Source: the human T2T-CHM13v2.0 reference genome, Homo sapiens
Strand: one strand, 5' to 3'
DNA length: 64,000 nucleotides
NCBI RefSeq assembly: GCF_009914755.1
Contig: NC_060925.1
The notes under the pieces were generated by a model, which saw only the letters and a list, made by a program, of their open reading frames with translations, was not told the origin of the DNA and did not search any database. Numbering within the stretch: position 1 is the first letter of the stretch; the number at the start of each line of letters is the position of its first letter. The translations under genes and the position numbers were made by a program. Shown piece by piece: positions 29,167-33,138 of the stretch.

Positions 29167-29478
29167 AAGAAAATCAAAGCTGTAATTAAACGTCTCTCAA
29201 TAAAGAAATGCCCAGGACTTGATGGTTCACTGCTGAATTTTACCAAACATTTAAAGAACTAATACTAATCCTACTGAAACTATTCTGAAAAATAGAGGAT
29301 AAAGTAATATTTCTCAACATATTCTATAAGGCCAGTATTACCCTGATACCCACACCAGATAAAGACACATCAGAAAAAGAAAACTACAGGCCAATATCTC
29401 TGAAGAATATTGATGCAAAATTCCTCAACAAAATAGTAGTAAACTGAATTCAACAATACATTAGAAAGATCATTCATC

Positions 29479-31606
29479 GGATTCTCCTGCCTCAGCCTGC
29501 GGAGTGCCTGCAATTGCAGGCGCGTGCCGCCACACCTGACTGGTTTTCGTATTTTTTTGGTGGAGACGGGGTTTCGCTGTGTTGGCGGGGCGGGTCTCCA
29601 GCTCCTAACCGCGAGTGATCCGCCGGCCTCAGCCTCCCGAGGTGCCGGGATTGCAGACGGAGTCTGGTTCACTCAGTGCTCAGTGGCGCCCAGGCTGGAG
29701 TGCAGTGGCGTGGTCTCGGCTCGCTACAACCTCCACCTCCCAGCCGCCTGCCTTGGCCTCCCAAAGTGCCGAGATTGCAGCCTCTGCCCGGCCGCCACCC
29801 CGTCTGGGAAGTGAGGAGCGTCTCTGCCTGGCCACCCATCGTCTGGGATGTGAGGAGCCCCTCTGCCTGGCTGCCCAGTCTGGAAGGTGGGGAGCGTCTC
29901 TGCCCAGCCACCATCCCATCTGGGAAGTGGGGAGCGCCTCTTCCCAGCCGCCCTCACATCTGGGAAGTGAGGAGCGTCTCTGCCCGGCCGCCCATTGTCT
30001 GGGATGTGGGGAGCGCCTCTGCCCCGCCGCCCCGTCTGGGATGTGGGGAGCGCCTCTGCCCGGCCGCCACCCCGTCTGGGAGGTGAGGAGCGTCTCTGCC
30101 CGGCCGCCCCGTCTGAGAGGTGAGGAGACCCTCCGCCCGGCAGCCGCCCCGTATGAGAGGTGAGGAGCCCCTCCGCCCGGCAGCCGCCCCATCTGGGAAG
30201 TGAGGAGCATCTCCGCCCGGCAGCCACCCCGTCTGGGAAGTGGGGAGCATCTCCGCCCGGCAGCCACCCCGTCCGGGAGGGAGGTGGGGGGGGTCAGCCC
30301 CCGCCAGGCCAGCCGCCCCGTCCGGGAGGGAGGTGGGGGCGTCAGCCCCCCGCCCGGCCAGCCGCCCCGTCCGGGAGGTGAGGGGCGCCTCTTCCCGGCC
30401 GCCCCTACTGGGAAGTGAGGAGCCCCTCTGCCCGGCCAGTCGCCCCGTCCGGGAGGGAGGTGGGGGGATCAGCCCCCCACCCGGCCAGCCGCCCCGTCCG
30501 GGAGGGAGGTGGGGGGGTCAGCCCCCCGCCCGGCCAGCCGCCCCGTCCGGGAGGGAGGTGGGGGGGTCAGCCCCCGCCCGGCCAGCCGCCCCGTCCGGGA
30601 GGGAGGTGGGGGGGTCAGCCCCCCGCCCGGCCAGCCGCCCCGTCCAGGAGGTGAGGGGCGCCTCTGCCCGGCCGCCCCTACTGGGAAGTGAGGAGCCCCT
30701 CTGCCCGGCCAGTCGCCCCGTCCGGGAGGGAGGTGGGGGGGTCAGCCCCCCACCCGGCCAGCCGCCCCGTCCAGGAGAGAGGTGGGGGGGTCAGCCCCCC
30801 GCCCGGCCAGCCGCCCCGTCCGGGAGGGAGGTGGGGGGGTCAGCCCCCCGCCCGGCCAGCCGCCCCATCCAGGAGGTGAGGGGCGCCTCTGCCCGGCCGC
30901 CCCTACTGGGAAGTGGGGAGCCCCTCTGCCCGGCCAGCCGCCCCGTCCGGGAGGGAGGTGGGGGGGTCAGCCCCCCGCCCGGCCAGCAGCCCCGTCCGGG
31001 AGGTGAGGTGTGCCTCTGCCCGGCCGCCCCTGCTGGGAGGTGAGGAGCCCCTCTGCCCGGCTGCCACCCCGTCTGGGAGGTGTGCCCAACAGCTCATTGA
31101 GAGCGGGCCAGGATGACAATGGCGGCTTTGTGGAGTGGGGGGGGGGAAGGGTGGGGAAAAGATTGAGGAATCGGATGGTTGCCGTGTCTGTGTAGAGGGA
31201 GGTAGACATGGGAGACTTTTCATTTTGTTCTGTACTGAGAAAAATTCTTCTGCCTTGGGATCCTGTTGATCTGTGACCTTACCCCCGACCCTGTGCTCTC
31301 TGAAACATGTGCTGTGTCCACTCAGAGTTAAATGGATTAAGGGCGGTGCAAGATGTGCTTTGTTAAACAGATGCTTGAAGGCAGCATGCTCATTAAGAGT
31401 CATCACCACTCCCTAATCTCAAGTACCCAGGGACACAAACGCTGCGGAAGGCCGCAGGGTCCTCTGCCTAGGAAAACCAGAGACCTTTGTTCACTTGTTT
31501 ATCTGCTGACCTTCCCTCCACTATTGTCCTTTGACCCTGCCAAATCCCCCTCCGTGAGAAACACCCAAGAATGATCAATAAAAAAATAAATAAATAAATA
31601 AATAAA
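29479..31606 (+). mobile_element. SVA retrotransposon (young, D-F type), 5'-truncated with no CCCTCT hexamer
   Basis: Antisense Alu-like domain, GC-rich VNTR (~29780-31075), SINE-R ending GAAACACCCAAGAATGATCAATAAA, (AAAT)n tail, perfect 16-bp TSD AGAAAGATCATTCATC (29463-29478, 31607-31622). Confidence 0.97.
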
Positions 31607-33138
31607 AGAAAGATCATTCATCATGACCAAGTGGGATTTATCCCAGGGATGCAACGATGGTTCAACATATGCAAATCAATCAATGTGATACATCATATCA
31701 GCAGAATGAAGGATACAAACCATATGATCATTTCAATTGATGCTGAAAAAGCTTTCGATAAAATTTAACATCCTTAATGATAAAAGCCCTCAAAAAACTG
31801 GGGATACAAGGAACATAACATAACAAAAGTCATATACTACAGACTCACAGCTAGTATCATACTGAACGGGGAAACACTGAAAGCCTTTCCTGTAAGACCT
31901 AGAACATGACAAGGATGTTTGCTGTCACCGCTGTTAGTCAACATTGTACTGGAAGTCCTAGCTGGAACAATCAGACAAGGGAAAAAAAATAAAGGGCATC
32001 CAAATTGGAAAAAAAGAAGTCAAATTATCCTTGTTTGCAGATGATATCTCTTATATGTGGAAAAACCTAGACTCCACTAAAAAACTATTGGAAGTGTTAA
32101 ATAAATTCAATAAAGCTGCAGGATACAAAACCAACATACAAAAATCAGTAGCATTTCTATATGCCAACAGTGAACAGTGTGAAAAAGAAATTAAAAAGTG
32201 ATCCCATTTACAATAGCCACACATAAAATTAAATACCTAGCAATTACCCAAAGAAGTGAAAGATCTCTGTAATGAAAACTATAAAACACTGATGAAAGAA
32301 ATTGAAGAGAACACCAAAAAAAATGGAAAAATATTCCATGTTCATAGATTGGAAGAATAAATATTGTTAAAATGTTTATACTACCCAAAGGATGCAATGC
32401 AATCCCTATTAAAATACCAATGACATTCTTCACAGAAATAGAAAAAAAATCCTAAAATTCATATGGAATCACGAAAGACCCAGAATAGCCAAAACTATCC
32501 TGAGCAAAAAGAACAAAACTAGAGGAATCATATTACCTGACTTCAAATTATACTACAGAGCTATAGAAAACAAAACAGCATGGTGCTGGCATAAAAAGAG
32601 ACACCTAGACCAATGGAACAGAATAGAGAACCCAGAAACAAATGTACACACCTACACATTTTTGACAAAGGTATCAAGAACATACACTGGGGAAAAGACA
32701 ATCTCTTCAATAAATGGTGCTGGGAAAATTGGATATCCATATGCAGAAGAATGAAACTAGACCCCCCTATCTCTCACCATATATAAATATCAAATCAAAA
32801 TGGATTAAGCACTTAAATTTAAGACCTCAAACTATGAAACTACTACAAGAAAACATTGGGGAAAATCTCTAGGACATTGGTCTGGGCAAAATTTTCTTGA
32901 GCAATACTCCATAAGCATAGTCAACAAAAGCAAAAATGAATAAATGGGATCACATCAAGTTAAAAAGCTTCTGCACAGCAAAGGATACAATCAACAAAGT
33001 GAAAACTCACAGCATGGGAGAAAATATTTGCAAACTATCCATCTGACAAGGGATTAATAACTAAAATATATAATGAGCTCAACAACTATATAGGAAAAAA
33101 TCATAACAACCCGACTGAAAAATGGACAAAAGGTCTTA

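What the first reader, a model, noticed from the sequence alone, without database searches (positions are those of the whole stretch)
29479..31606. A-to-G hypermutated SVA: possible genomic fossil of an ADAR-edited RNA
Seen: the internal unit CCGCCCCTACTGGGAAGTGAGGAG is intact at 30399 and 30672, but reads ..GTGGGGAG at 30897 (pos 30916) and CCTGCTGGGAGGTG at 31024 (pos 31032, 31039). All three differences are A to G. Against the SVA consensus as I recall it, about 25-30 sites in total have G for A on the sense strand in all three domains. Alu-like: 29625, 29683, 29713. VNTR: 29886, 29890, 29922, 29930, 30119, 30159. SINE-R: 31103, the GGAATAGAAAG segment now GGAGTGGGGGG at 31132-31146, then 31168, 31197-31198, 31237, 31287, 31441. 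Established: APOBEC3 leaves sense G-to-A and CpG decay leaves C-to-T/G-to-A; clustered sense A-to-G is the signature of A-to-I editing read by reverse transcriptase. Inference: the source RNA, or an ancestral source element, was hyperedited as dsRNA and still retrotransposed by L1 ORF2p (perfect 16-bp TSD, A tail). That would be a route by which RNA editing is written into the germline. I cannot say whether this copy has been described.
Basis: partly seen in the sequence, partly recalled or inferred. Interest (0 to 1): 0.85.

Follow-up and report, generated by a model that had tools for sequence, protein, structure and literature searches.

The report
SVA copy carrying fossil A-to-G hypermutation
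This old, 5'-truncated SVA retrotransposon carries about 26 adenine-to-guanine changes on its sense strand and almost none of the mirror-image kind. That is the mark expected if its RNA, and the RNA of its ancestors, was edited by an ADAR enzyme before being copied back into the germline.

Summary
I compared 1,366 alignable positions of the SVA (window 29479-31606) with its closest genomic relatives. The copy differs at 46 substitutions: 26 A>G, 2 T>C, 10 CpG transitions and 8 others.

- **Direction:** eight of eight HERV-K copies have A at the 12 SINE-R sites (7 of 8 at one), so G is the derived state.
- **Position:** every A>G lies at or before 31287. None of the 74 As after 31290 is changed.
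- **Context:** changed As avoid a 5' G, both here and in an independent sample of 53 chromosome-1 SVAs.
- **Inheritance:** eleven Gs are shared with two or more other copies, mostly a small lineage on chr22, chr16 and chr19. About 15 are private or nearly so, and the private combinations occur nowhere else in this genome.
- **Other copies:** 4 of the 53 sampled SVAs carry their own clusters of 7-12 A>G.

Best reading (about 0.6): repeated ADAR editing of SVA RNA, fixed by L1-mediated retrotransposition. No double-stranded RNA partner was found, and the enzyme is inferred, not shown. The nine literature searches found no description of this in SVA. One key paper could not be read.

The parts
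29463..29478 (+). 5' copy of the 16-bp target-site duplication AGAAAGATCATTCATC
   Evidence: Exact repeat found by script and visible. The bottom-strand site reads TTCT/AA, close to the L1 endonuclease consensus; that consensus is recalled, not tested.
29479..29790 (+). Alu-like domain of the SVA, 5'-truncated. The CCCTCT hexamer and roughly the first 170 nt present in full-length relatives are missing. The first base, G at 29479, is not templated by SVA or by the target.
   Evidence: 94-97% identical to the same domain in 22 other SVA copies. A full-length relative, L018, shows the missing 5' part. A>G at 29625, 29683 and 29713, with 0 T>C.
29791..31084 (+). VNTR domain, about 1.3 kb with units of about 37-49 bp
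   Evidence: Tandem Repeats Finder arrays. GTGGGGAG makes up 6 of 16 units here against 23 of 321 pooled in 27 other copies. A>G at 29886, 29890, 29930, 29962, 30046, 30119, 30159, 30186, 31032, 31039 and 31063, and also 30240 and 30916 in less alignable stretches.
31085..31290 (+). 5' part of SINE-R, the densest part of the A>G zone: 12 of 57 As changed
   Evidence: A>G at 31103, 31135, 31137, 31139, 31140, 31149, 31168, 31197, 31198, 31201, 31237 and 31287, plus a 1-nt deletion. HERV-K has A at all of them.
31291..31576 (+). 3' part of SINE-R, the spared zone: 0 of 74 As changed to G. It holds only T>C at 31553 and A>T at 31531; the latter is shared with L002 and L003.
31577..31606 (+). AATAAA signal and A-rich tail degraded to (AAAT)n
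31607..31622 (+). 3' copy of the target-site duplication
31623..31765 (+). Host sequence: a decayed reverse-transcriptase-coding repeat that the SVA interrupted. I recognise it as L1 ORF2.
   Evidence: The frame runs through the TSD. Translation of 31613-31765 matches Pfam RVT_1 at E = 3.6e-5, 24 bits, below the 29.6-bit cut-off because the piece is only 51 aa.

Best explanation
**Proposed mechanism.** Sense-strand SVA RNA was deaminated at adenosines (A-to-I), most likely by an ADAR enzyme acting on a double-stranded stretch. L1 ORF2p then read inosine as G during target-primed reverse transcription, so the edits became germline DNA.

**At least two episodes are recorded in this copy.**
1. 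Older edits are confined to about 255 nt at the VNTR/SINE-R junction (31032-31287). They were already in the DNA of the source elements that also gave rise to the copies on chr22 (L002), chr16 (L003) and chr19 (L005).
2. A later, broader episode spans 29625-31237. It gave about 15 further Gs that no other copy in this genome combines. These are attributed to this copy's own template RNA.

**Shown:** the substitution spectrum, its direction, its strand, its clustering, its neighbour bias, the sharing pattern and the L1-type insertion.

**Inferred:** that the enzyme was ADAR, that the change happened on RNA, and what the RNA paired with.
For: - **Class and strand:** 26 A>G against 2 T>C, 1 A>C and 1 A>T over 1,366 positions. 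An error-prone polymerase acting at WA motifs would be expected to add many A>T and A>C changes; that ratio is recalled from somatic hypermutation, not tested here.
- **Direction:** 8 of 8 HERV-K copies have A at 11 of the 12 SINE-R sites and 7 of 8 at the twelfth.
- **Clustering:** 26 of 168 As up to 31290 are changed against 0 of 74 after it (p = 6e-5).
- **Neighbour bias:** 5' G at 2 of 25 changed against 19 of 32 unchanged As in 33 copies (p = 1e-4). This was replicated in 53 independently chosen chromosome-1 copies, polarised by HERV-K: 3 of 30 against 16 of 23 (p = 9e-6).
- **Episodic character:** in the 53 chromosome-1 copies, A>G per copy is over-dispersed (mean 1.4, variance 5.3; four copies with 7-12). 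T>C never exceeds 4. The 70 non-clustered copies of the combined 86-copy set, pooled, show no A>G excess.
- **Transmission through retrotransposition:** the shared Gs sit in copies with different 3' flanks on different chromosomes. A non-A>G marker, A>T at 31531, independently joins the window copy to L002 and L003.
- **Private set:** the private G combinations are unique in the genome. There is 1 exact place among 29 within one mismatch, and 1 place within two mismatches.
- **Expected background:** ordinary post-insertion mutation would give about 2 A>G, by my estimate from the roughly 10 other non-CpG changes and a recalled germline spectrum.
- **L1 hallmarks:** 16-bp TSD, A-rich tail and 5' truncation.
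Against: - **No dsRNA partner found.** Folding the unedited SINE-R gives z = +1.5, and the junction region gives z = +0.4. The minimum-energy fold of a full-length relative shows only fragmentary long-range pairing. No inverted SINE-R lies within 1.5 kb of any of 32 related copies, or anywhere in the 64-kb window.
- **3' G enrichment is not significant** (p = 0.14).
- **VNTR sites do not show the bias significantly.** In the 5' VNTR, 3 of 8 changed As have a 5' G, against 32 of 49 unchanged As (p = 0.24; the repeated GTGAGGAG-to-GTGGGGAG change). Exchange between repeat units could have made some of these.
- **The WA preference is shared with polymerase eta.**
- **Published cell-culture work is unhelpful.** One study found that ADAR1 restricts L1 retrotransposition independently of editing and saw no editing on L1 RNA (PMC5224506, passages read).
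- **Ancestral states outside SINE-R** rest on the majority of relatives, not on an outgroup.
- **The bases were not checked** in another assembly.
Confidence: 0.6

Rival explanations
1. The changes are polymerase errors made during retrotransposition. Either L1 ORF2p put C opposite template A, or an error-prone polymerase of the eta type carried out second-strand synthesis, which puts G for A at WA motifs on the new sense strand.
For: - 17 of 26 changed As in this copy, and 24 of 30 changed sites in the independent sample, follow A or T. That is also the WA motif.
- The changes are on the sense strand and are heritable once inserted.
- No dsRNA partner was found.
Against: - A>G outnumbers A>C plus A>T by 26 to 2. 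Polymerase eta in somatic hypermutation gives roughly as many transversions as transitions at A; that figure is recalled.
- Fifteen or more errors in 1.8 kb in one round is far above the published L1 RT error rate, which is also recalled.
- The last 290 nt, the first part copied by ORF2p, are spared entirely. No polymerase model predicts this without extra assumptions.
Confidence: 0.13
2. The changes are strand-asymmetric DNA mutation in place. Source loci, and this locus, accumulated A>G on the non-template strand. Possible routes are transcription-associated mutagenesis, or deamination of the sense DNA strand held in a hybrid with antisense RNA. Offspring sampled at different times would then give the nested pattern.
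For: - The nested sharing (window inside the L002/L003 group, inside the L005 group) is what a slowly mutating master gene would leave.
- ADARs have been reported to edit the DNA strand of RNA-DNA hybrids. I know this only as cited in PMC7693803 (passages read).
Against: - The known germline transcriptional asymmetry is well under two-fold (recalled), not 13-fold.
- Twelve of 57 As changed in 200 bp would need a rate tens of times above background.
- No copy with the window's private Gs exists elsewhere in the genome, so no surviving master carries them.
- This copy is 5'-truncated and intergenic, about 15 kb beyond the 3' end of RD3 (hub annotation). There is no evident reason for hypermutation here.
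Confidence: 0.12
3. This is ordinary lineage-diagnostic substitutions, plus exchange between VNTR units, plus chance.
For: - 31201 G is common (12 of the 53 chromosome-1 copies), and 30186 G is in 10 of 25 relatives.
- About 24 of the first 100 genome-wide matches listed carry the 31201 G variant, by my hand count.
- GTGGGGAG is a normal VNTR unit present once in most copies, so unit exchange could spread it.
Against: - Only 6 places in the genome carry the three Gs at 31197, 31198 and 31201 together.
- Nine A>G are found in no relative and six more in only one.
- Drift or GC-biased conversion would give T>C as often as A>G, yet the ratio is 26 to 2.
- The 70 non-clustered copies show no A>G excess.
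Confidence: 0.1
4. The Gs are assembly or sequencing artefacts.
For: The region is G-rich, with a run of ten Gs at 31138-31147. Only one assembly was available.
Against: - Eleven of the Gs recur in independent copies on other chromosomes of the same assembly.
- Long-read errors are mainly homopolymer length errors, not base substitutions (recalled).
Confidence: 0.03

Closest known systems
ADAR hyper-editing of inverted-repeat Alu RNA in human transcripts
   Same: Clustered, strand-specific A-to-G changes with 5' G avoided. The Alu-like domain of SVA is antisense Alu, a classical substrate.
   Different: Here the changes are in genomic DNA of a retrotransposed copy, not in RNA against DNA. They are densest in the VNTR/SINE-R junction (19-21% of As) and sparse in the Alu-like part (3 of 41 As). 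No inverted partner is seen.
APOBEC3 G-to-A DNA-editing fossils in endogenous retroviruses and other retroelements (Knisbacher and Levanon, PMC4866542, passages read; Carmi et al. 2011, recalled)
   Same: An editing enzyme's footprint is frozen into the germline because a hypermutated copy still integrated. It is detected as a one-directional, strand-biased mismatch cluster between related copies.
   Different: The enzyme class, the substrate (RNA before reverse transcription, not minus-strand cDNA) and the base change are all different. In this copy, G>A occurs only at CpG.
RNA editing of retrotransposons fixed in genomes, as proposed by Knisbacher and Levanon 2015 (Ann N Y Acad Sci)
   Same: The same idea: ADAR-edited retroelement RNA is reverse-transcribed and inserted.
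   Different: I could not read the paper (not held). I saw only its citation in PMC5850729. Whether it covers SVA is unknown to me, and its content as I describe it is recalled.
A-to-G biased hypermutation of RNA virus and retrovirus genomes attributed to ADAR
   Same: Bursts of A>G on one strand of a replicating RNA, which are then inherited.
   Different: The host here is a non-autonomous cellular retrotransposon mobilised by L1. My knowledge of the viral cases is recalled, apart from a reference title seen.
Polymerase eta WA-to-WG mutation in immunoglobulin somatic hypermutation
   Same: A>G at A preceded by A or T, with strand bias.
   Different: That process also yields many A>T and A>C changes (recalled). 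Here the ratio is 26 to 2.

Membership tests
SVA retrotransposon | 5' CCCTCT hexamer repeat | tested here: not met
   Absent because the copy is 5'-truncated. The full-length relative L018 has it upstream of the point where this copy starts. Truncation is usual for L1-mobilised copies, so this does not argue against membership.
SVA retrotransposon | Alu-like domain | tested here: met
   311 nt at 94-97% identity to the same domain of 22 other SVA copies.
SVA retrotransposon | GC-rich VNTR of about 35-50-bp units | tested here: met
   Tandem Repeats Finder periods of 37, 40 and 49 and their multiples over 29780-31082.
SVA retrotransposon | SINE-R domain derived from the HERV-K env end and LTR | tested here: met
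   492 nt at 96-98% identity to 29 genomic SVA copies, and at 82-88% to the stretch downstream of env in 8 HERV-K loci.
SVA retrotransposon | L1-type insertion: AATAAA, A-rich tail, target-site duplication | tested here: met
Named SVA subfamily (A to F) | Diagnostic positions of a curated consensus | not testable with these tools
   No Dfam or Repbase consensus is on hand. Only 6 genomic places share the three Gs at 31197, 31198 and 31201, so the Gs do not define any large subfamily.
ADAR-edited RNA fossil | Excess of A>G over T>C on the transcribed sense strand | tested here: met
   26 against 2, p = 2e-7.
ADAR-edited RNA fossil | G is the derived state | tested here: met
   Met for SINE-R by the HERV-K outgroup. 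For the Alu-like and VNTR parts it rests only on the majority of relatives, including the sister copy L003.
ADAR-edited RNA fossil | Changes clustered in a domain, not spread evenly | tested here: met
   26 of 168 As against 0 of 74. Per-copy counts are over-dispersed.
ADAR-edited RNA fossil | 5' neighbour G depleted | tested here: met
   Not significant within the VNTR taken alone (3 of 8 against 32 of 49, p = 0.24).
ADAR-edited RNA fossil | 3' neighbour G enriched | tested here: inconclusive
   14 of 26 against 81 of 216, p = 0.14. No enrichment in SINE-R across copies.
ADAR-edited RNA fossil | A double-stranded RNA partner for the edited stretch | tested here: not met
   Fold z-scores of +1.5 and +0.4. 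No inverted copy within 1.5 kb of 32 relatives. The true source loci are unknown, and an antisense transcript cannot be tested here.
ADAR-edited RNA fossil | Gs already present at the time of insertion | not testable with these tools
   Needs ape orthologues. Met for the 11 Gs shared with two or more independent insertions.
APOBEC3-edited retroelement | Clustered sense-strand G>A outside CpG | tested here: not met
   All 7 G>A are at CpG. The reverse reading, with G ancestral and A derived, is excluded by HERV-K.

The most novel reading that the evidence does not exclude
A-to-I editing of SVA RNA is recurrent, not a one-off. Several independent SVA lineages carry bursts of sense-strand A>G that cover the VNTR and the first 200-220 nt of SINE-R and always spare the last 270 nt or so. 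In an unselected chromosome-1 sample, 4 of 53 copies have 7-12 such changes.

This would mean three things:
- Germline SVA transcripts regularly form dsRNA over a defined domain, for instance with an antisense transcript starting inside SINE-R.
- Edited SVA ribonucleoproteins stay competent for L1-mediated insertion.
- ADAR editing has supplied a sizeable share of the substitutions that distinguish SVA sublineages, building G-runs on the sense strand as it goes.
Probability: 0.4. Interest if true: 0.75.

Novelty: new member of a known kind. Interest (0 to 1): 0.6.

Why it matters
RNA editing is normally thought to leave the genome untouched. A retrotransposon whose edited RNA was written back into the germline, more than once along one lineage, is a concrete route from RNA editing to heritable DNA change.

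It also shows that hyper-edited SVA RNA can still be mobilised by L1, and that some SVA sublineage markers may come from editing, not from random mutation. That matters for dating and for building SVA phylogenies from "diagnostic" substitutions.

The spared 3' end points to a defined double-stranded domain in germline SVA transcripts, which can now be looked for directly.

Tried and rejected
- **Reverse direction** (G ancestral, A produced by APOBEC in the main SVA lineage): rejected by the HERV-K outgroup.
- **Intrinsic hairpin as ADAR substrate:** SINE-R alone and the VNTR/SINE-R junction fold no better than shuffles (z = +1.5 and +0.4).
- **Pairing of the 5' CCCTCT repeat with the purine-rich 5' SINE-R,** which would put the edited As opposite C: the minimum-energy fold of full-length L018 pairs 23 hexamer-region bases with SINE-R columns 15-50. 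These are short interrupted helices and do not cover most edited sites. I left this as an untested idea.
- **Inverted SVA or LTR partner:** none within 1.5 kb of 32 relatives or in the window.
- **Site-specific hot spots beyond the neighbour rule:** 6 of the window's 12 SINE-R sites recur in four independent clustered copies. That is about what the 5'-neighbour preference alone predicts (my estimate is 4.5-6), so there is no extra hot-spot claim.
- **A sharp common boundary at 31290:** softened. Clusters in 16 copies end anywhere from 31160 to 31288, and in L062 and L058 run on to 31305.
- **VNTR 3' end in the chromosome-1 sample:** alignment across mixed subfamilies was too noisy to use.
- **Rfam scan of the region:** no hits.
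- **Literature:** nine searches. Term look-ups for ADAR, editing or A-to-G in four SVA and retroelement papers (PMC10681720, PMC9706992, PMC6139936, PMC5640379) found no mention. The review PMC4982230 discusses ADAR only for Alu. None of these describes A>G or ADAR fossils in SVA. Knisbacher and Levanon 2015 is not held, and its supplements and those of the others were not seen.
Full report
**What is there.** Window 29479-31606 (+) is an SVA retrotransposon. It has an Alu-like domain (29479-29790), a VNTR of about 1.3 kb (29791-31084), a SINE-R domain (31085-31576), and AATAAA with an A-rich (AAAT)n tail (31577-31606).
- It is flanked by a perfect 16-bp target-site duplication, AGAAAGATCATTCATC, at 29463-29478 and 31607-31622.
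- It is 5'-truncated. A full-length relative, L018, carries the CCCTCT repeat and about 170 further nucleotides upstream of the point where this copy begins.
- It interrupts a decayed reverse-transcriptase-coding repeat. The reading frame runs through the duplication, and 31613-31765 matches Pfam RVT_1 at E = 3.6e-5, below the curated cut-off because the piece is short. I recognise this as L1 ORF2.
- By the hub's table the site is intergenic, about 15 kb beyond the 3' end of RD3.

**How I built comparators.** No curated SVA consensus is available here, so I used the genome itself.
- A search of the window's own assembly with the SINE-R domain scored 40 of 1,789 candidates and gave 29 other loci at 95.9-98.4% identity.
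- I aligned each domain and compared the window with the commonest base per column among these relatives: 22 copies for the Alu-like part, 25 for the first 450 nt or so of the VNTR, 32 for the last 140 nt or so of the VNTR, and 29 for SINE-R.
- Columns where the commonest base had under 60% support were dropped, as were the poorly alignable middle of the VNTR and gapped columns. That left 1,366 positions.

The window differs at 46 substitutions: A>G 26, T>C 2, G>A 7 (all at CpG), C>T 4 (three at CpG), A>C 1, A>T 1 and five other transversions.
- Given 242 As and 281 Ts, 26 against 2 has binomial p = 2e-7.
- Two more GTGAGGAG-to-GTGGGGAG changes (near 30240 and at 30916) lie in stretches I excluded.
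- GTGGGGAG makes up 6 of 16 such units here, against 23 of 321 pooled in 27 other copies.
The exceptions are 29922 (no difference) and 31441 (a CpG position where the closest copies also have G).

**Direction.** The alternative reading is that G is ancestral and the main SVA lineage suffered G>A, which would be an APOBEC-type pattern. I tested this with HERV-K. Eight proviral loci found with the Pfam env model cover SINE-R positions 11 to about 360. All eight have A at 11 of the 12 sites, and seven of eight at the twelfth. G is therefore derived. For the Alu-like and VNTR parts there is no outgroup. However, the window's sister copy L003 has the majority A at the window's private VNTR sites.

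**Where the changes lie.** The fraction of As changed rises from the Alu-like part to the SINE-R start, then stops.

| Segment | As changed to G |
|---|---|
| Alu-like | 3 of 41 |
| 5' VNTR | 8 of 57 |
| Last 140 nt of VNTR plus start of SINE-R | 4 of 21 |
| First 206 nt of SINE-R | 12 of 57 |
| Last 286 nt of SINE-R | 0 of 74 |

These counts come (p = 6e-5 for up to 31290 against after it).

**Context.**
- In SINE-R columns 1-210, pooling 33 copies, 25 of 57 As are G in at least one copy. A 5' G precedes 2 of those 25 against 19 of the 32 never-changed As (Fisher p = 1e-4). A 5' A precedes 17 of 25 against 5 of 32.
- For the window alone over all domains, 5' G is 5 of 26 against 91 of 216 (p = 0.03), 5' A is 13 of 26 against 48 of 216 (p = 0.004), and 3' G is 14 of 26 against 81 of 216 (p = 0.14).
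- Within the 5' VNTR the depletion is not significant: 3 of 8 changed As have a 5' G, against 32 of 49 unchanged As (p = 0.24).
- Avoidance of 5' G matches the known ADAR neighbour preference, which I recall and did not test. The expected 3' G enrichment is not shown.

**Inherited or private?** Both.
- Eleven of the 26 Gs are shared with two or more relatives.
- In SINE-R, L002 (chr22), L003 (chr16) and L005 (chr19) share 31103, 31137, 31139, 31168, 31197, 31198 and 31201. L002 and L003 also share 31287 and the non-A>G marker A>T at 31531.
- The two Gs at the VNTR end, 31032 and 31039, are shared with L002 and L003.
- These copies have unrelated 3' flanks, so they are separate insertions.
- The exact 27-mer with the three Gs at 31197, 31198 and 31201 occurs at only 6 places in the genome.
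- 31201 G alone is common: 12 of 53 in the unselected sample, and about 24 of the first 100 matches listed by my hand count. 30186 G is in 10 of 25 relatives. These two are ordinary lineage markers.
- Nine A>G are in no relative and six more in a single one.
- The private VNTR unit and the private G-run version of 31127-31161 are unique in the genome: 1 exact place among 29 within one mismatch, and 1 place within two mismatches.
- The shared Gs are confined to 31032-31287. The private ones run from 29625 to 31237. This suggests at least two episodes with different extents.

**Is this copy unusual?** To avoid the bias of choosing relatives by similarity, I took 60 chromosome-1 places from the first 62 listed in a degenerate pattern search, skipping two that were already held as L015 and L019. 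Of these, 53 hold a full SINE-R.
- With changes polarised by HERV-K, A>G per copy in the 5' part is over-dispersed: mean 1.4, variance 5.3. The distribution is 21 copies with 0, 21 with 1, and then 2, 3, 4, 7, 8 and 12. T>C never exceeds 4.
- Against the sample majority, four copies have clusters: L076 with 12 A>G and 0 T>C, L082 with 8 and 1, L062 with 8 and 0, and L058 with 9 and 0.
- The 5' G depletion replicates in this independent set: 3 of 30 against 16 of 23 (p = 9e-6).
- Across 86 SVA copies, 38 of 58 HERV-K-polarised A sites in 31095-31290 show a derived G somewhere, against 17 of 47 T sites showing C. In 31291-31440 the figures are symmetrical, 9 of 38 and 11 of 37. That set includes the 32 copies chosen for likeness to the window.
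- The 70 copies without clusters show no A>G excess at all: 41 A>G against 74 T>C in the 5' part. The process is therefore episodic, not a steady bias.
- Clusters in 16 copies end between 31160 and 31288, and in L062 and L058 run on to 31305. None reaches the last 270 nt or so.
- The window copy is thus one clear case of something that recurs in SVA.

**Mechanism.** The pattern has six features:
- almost pure A>G;
- on the sense strand only;
- in bursts;
- avoiding 5' G;
- transmitted to daughter insertions;
- sitting in an element with L1 insertion hallmarks.

This is what A-to-I editing of the SVA transcript, followed by reverse transcription, would leave. I put that at about 0.6.

What is missing is the double-stranded partner.
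- The unedited SINE-R and the junction region fold no better than shuffled sequence.
- A full-length relative shows only fragmentary long-range pairing.
- No inverted SINE-R lies within 1.5 kb of 32 relatives or in the window.

An antisense transcript starting inside SINE-R would explain the spared 3' end. That is inference only, and I found no test of it.

**Rivals.**
- *Polymerase error at WA motifs during retrotransposition* fits the 5' neighbour. It does not fit the near absence of A>T and A>C (2 against 26), nor the sparing of the 3' end.
- *In-place strand-asymmetric mutation of source loci* fits the nesting. It needs an implausible rate, and no copy carrying the private Gs survives as a master.
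- *Drift plus VNTR unit exchange* accounts for a few sites (31201, 30186, perhaps some GTGGGGAG units) but not the asymmetry.
- *Assembly error* is unlikely for the shared sites and untested for the private ones.

**Age (rough, my estimate).** There are ten CpG transitions and about ten other non-A>G, non-CpG changes against relatives, and the tail has decayed. The insertion is therefore probably many millions of years old, so ape orthologues should exist and would be decisive.

**Literature.** Nine full-text searches found no description of A>G or ADAR footprints in genomic SVA copies.
- Term look-ups in four SVA and retroelement papers found no mention of ADAR, editing or A-to-G: PMC10681720, PMC9706992, PMC6139936 and PMC5640379.
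- PMC5224506 reports that ADAR1 binds the L1 ribonucleoprotein, restricts retrotransposition independently of editing, and that no editing was seen on L1 RNA (passages read).
- The general idea that edited retroelement RNA can be fixed in genomes is, as I recall, put forward in Knisbacher and Levanon 2015. That paper is not held, and I saw only its citation. It may already cover SVA.

**Verdict.** I file it as a new member of a known kind (editing footprints fossilised in retroelements). The added points are that part of the signature is inherited along a small SVA lineage, and that similar bursts occur in other SVA copies.

Noticed in passing
L076 (chr1:36.106 Mb), L082 (chr1:39.74 Mb), L062 (chr1:23.824 Mb), L058 (chr1:21.326 Mb): Four of 53 unselected chromosome-1 SVA copies carry their own clusters of 8-12 sense-strand A>G in the 5' SINE-R, with 0-1 T>C. 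L062 and L058 share a dense run that turns an A-rich stretch (window equivalents 31237-31244 and 31303-31305) into Gs.
   Followed up: partly
L014 (chr1:112.65 Mb), L020 (chr20:33.85 Mb), L040-L042 (chr2, chr15, chr17): These copies have 4-8 A>G in the same zone, partly overlapping the window's sites. L061 and L047, then L014, then L076 look like a second nested lineage that gains A>G step by step.
   Followed up: partly
window 31062-31063: Relatives read CA here and the window reads TG. An A>G that created a CpG, followed by C>T decay of that CpG, would explain it. If so, the A>G is old.
   Followed up: no
window 29479: The first base of the insert, G, matches neither the SVA relatives (which have T) nor the target duplication. 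It is a single untemplated or mutated base at the 5' junction.
   Followed up: no
window 31138-31147: The A>G changes plus a 1-nt deletion have produced a run of ten Gs, with GGG blocks nearby (31151-31153 and 31155-31158). This raises G-quadruplex potential on the sense strand. Not tested.
   Followed up: no
window 31577-31606; L002, L014, L040 3' ends: The tails of the window copy and of several relatives have the same (AAAT)n form, not pure A.
   Followed up: no
genome-wide: The 25-nt SINE-R pattern allowing A or G at three positions matches 1,222 places. Among the first 100 listed, single A>G variants at the 31197 and 31198 equivalents appear 3 and 4 times, and the double variant AAGGAG twice (hand count).
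   Followed up: partly
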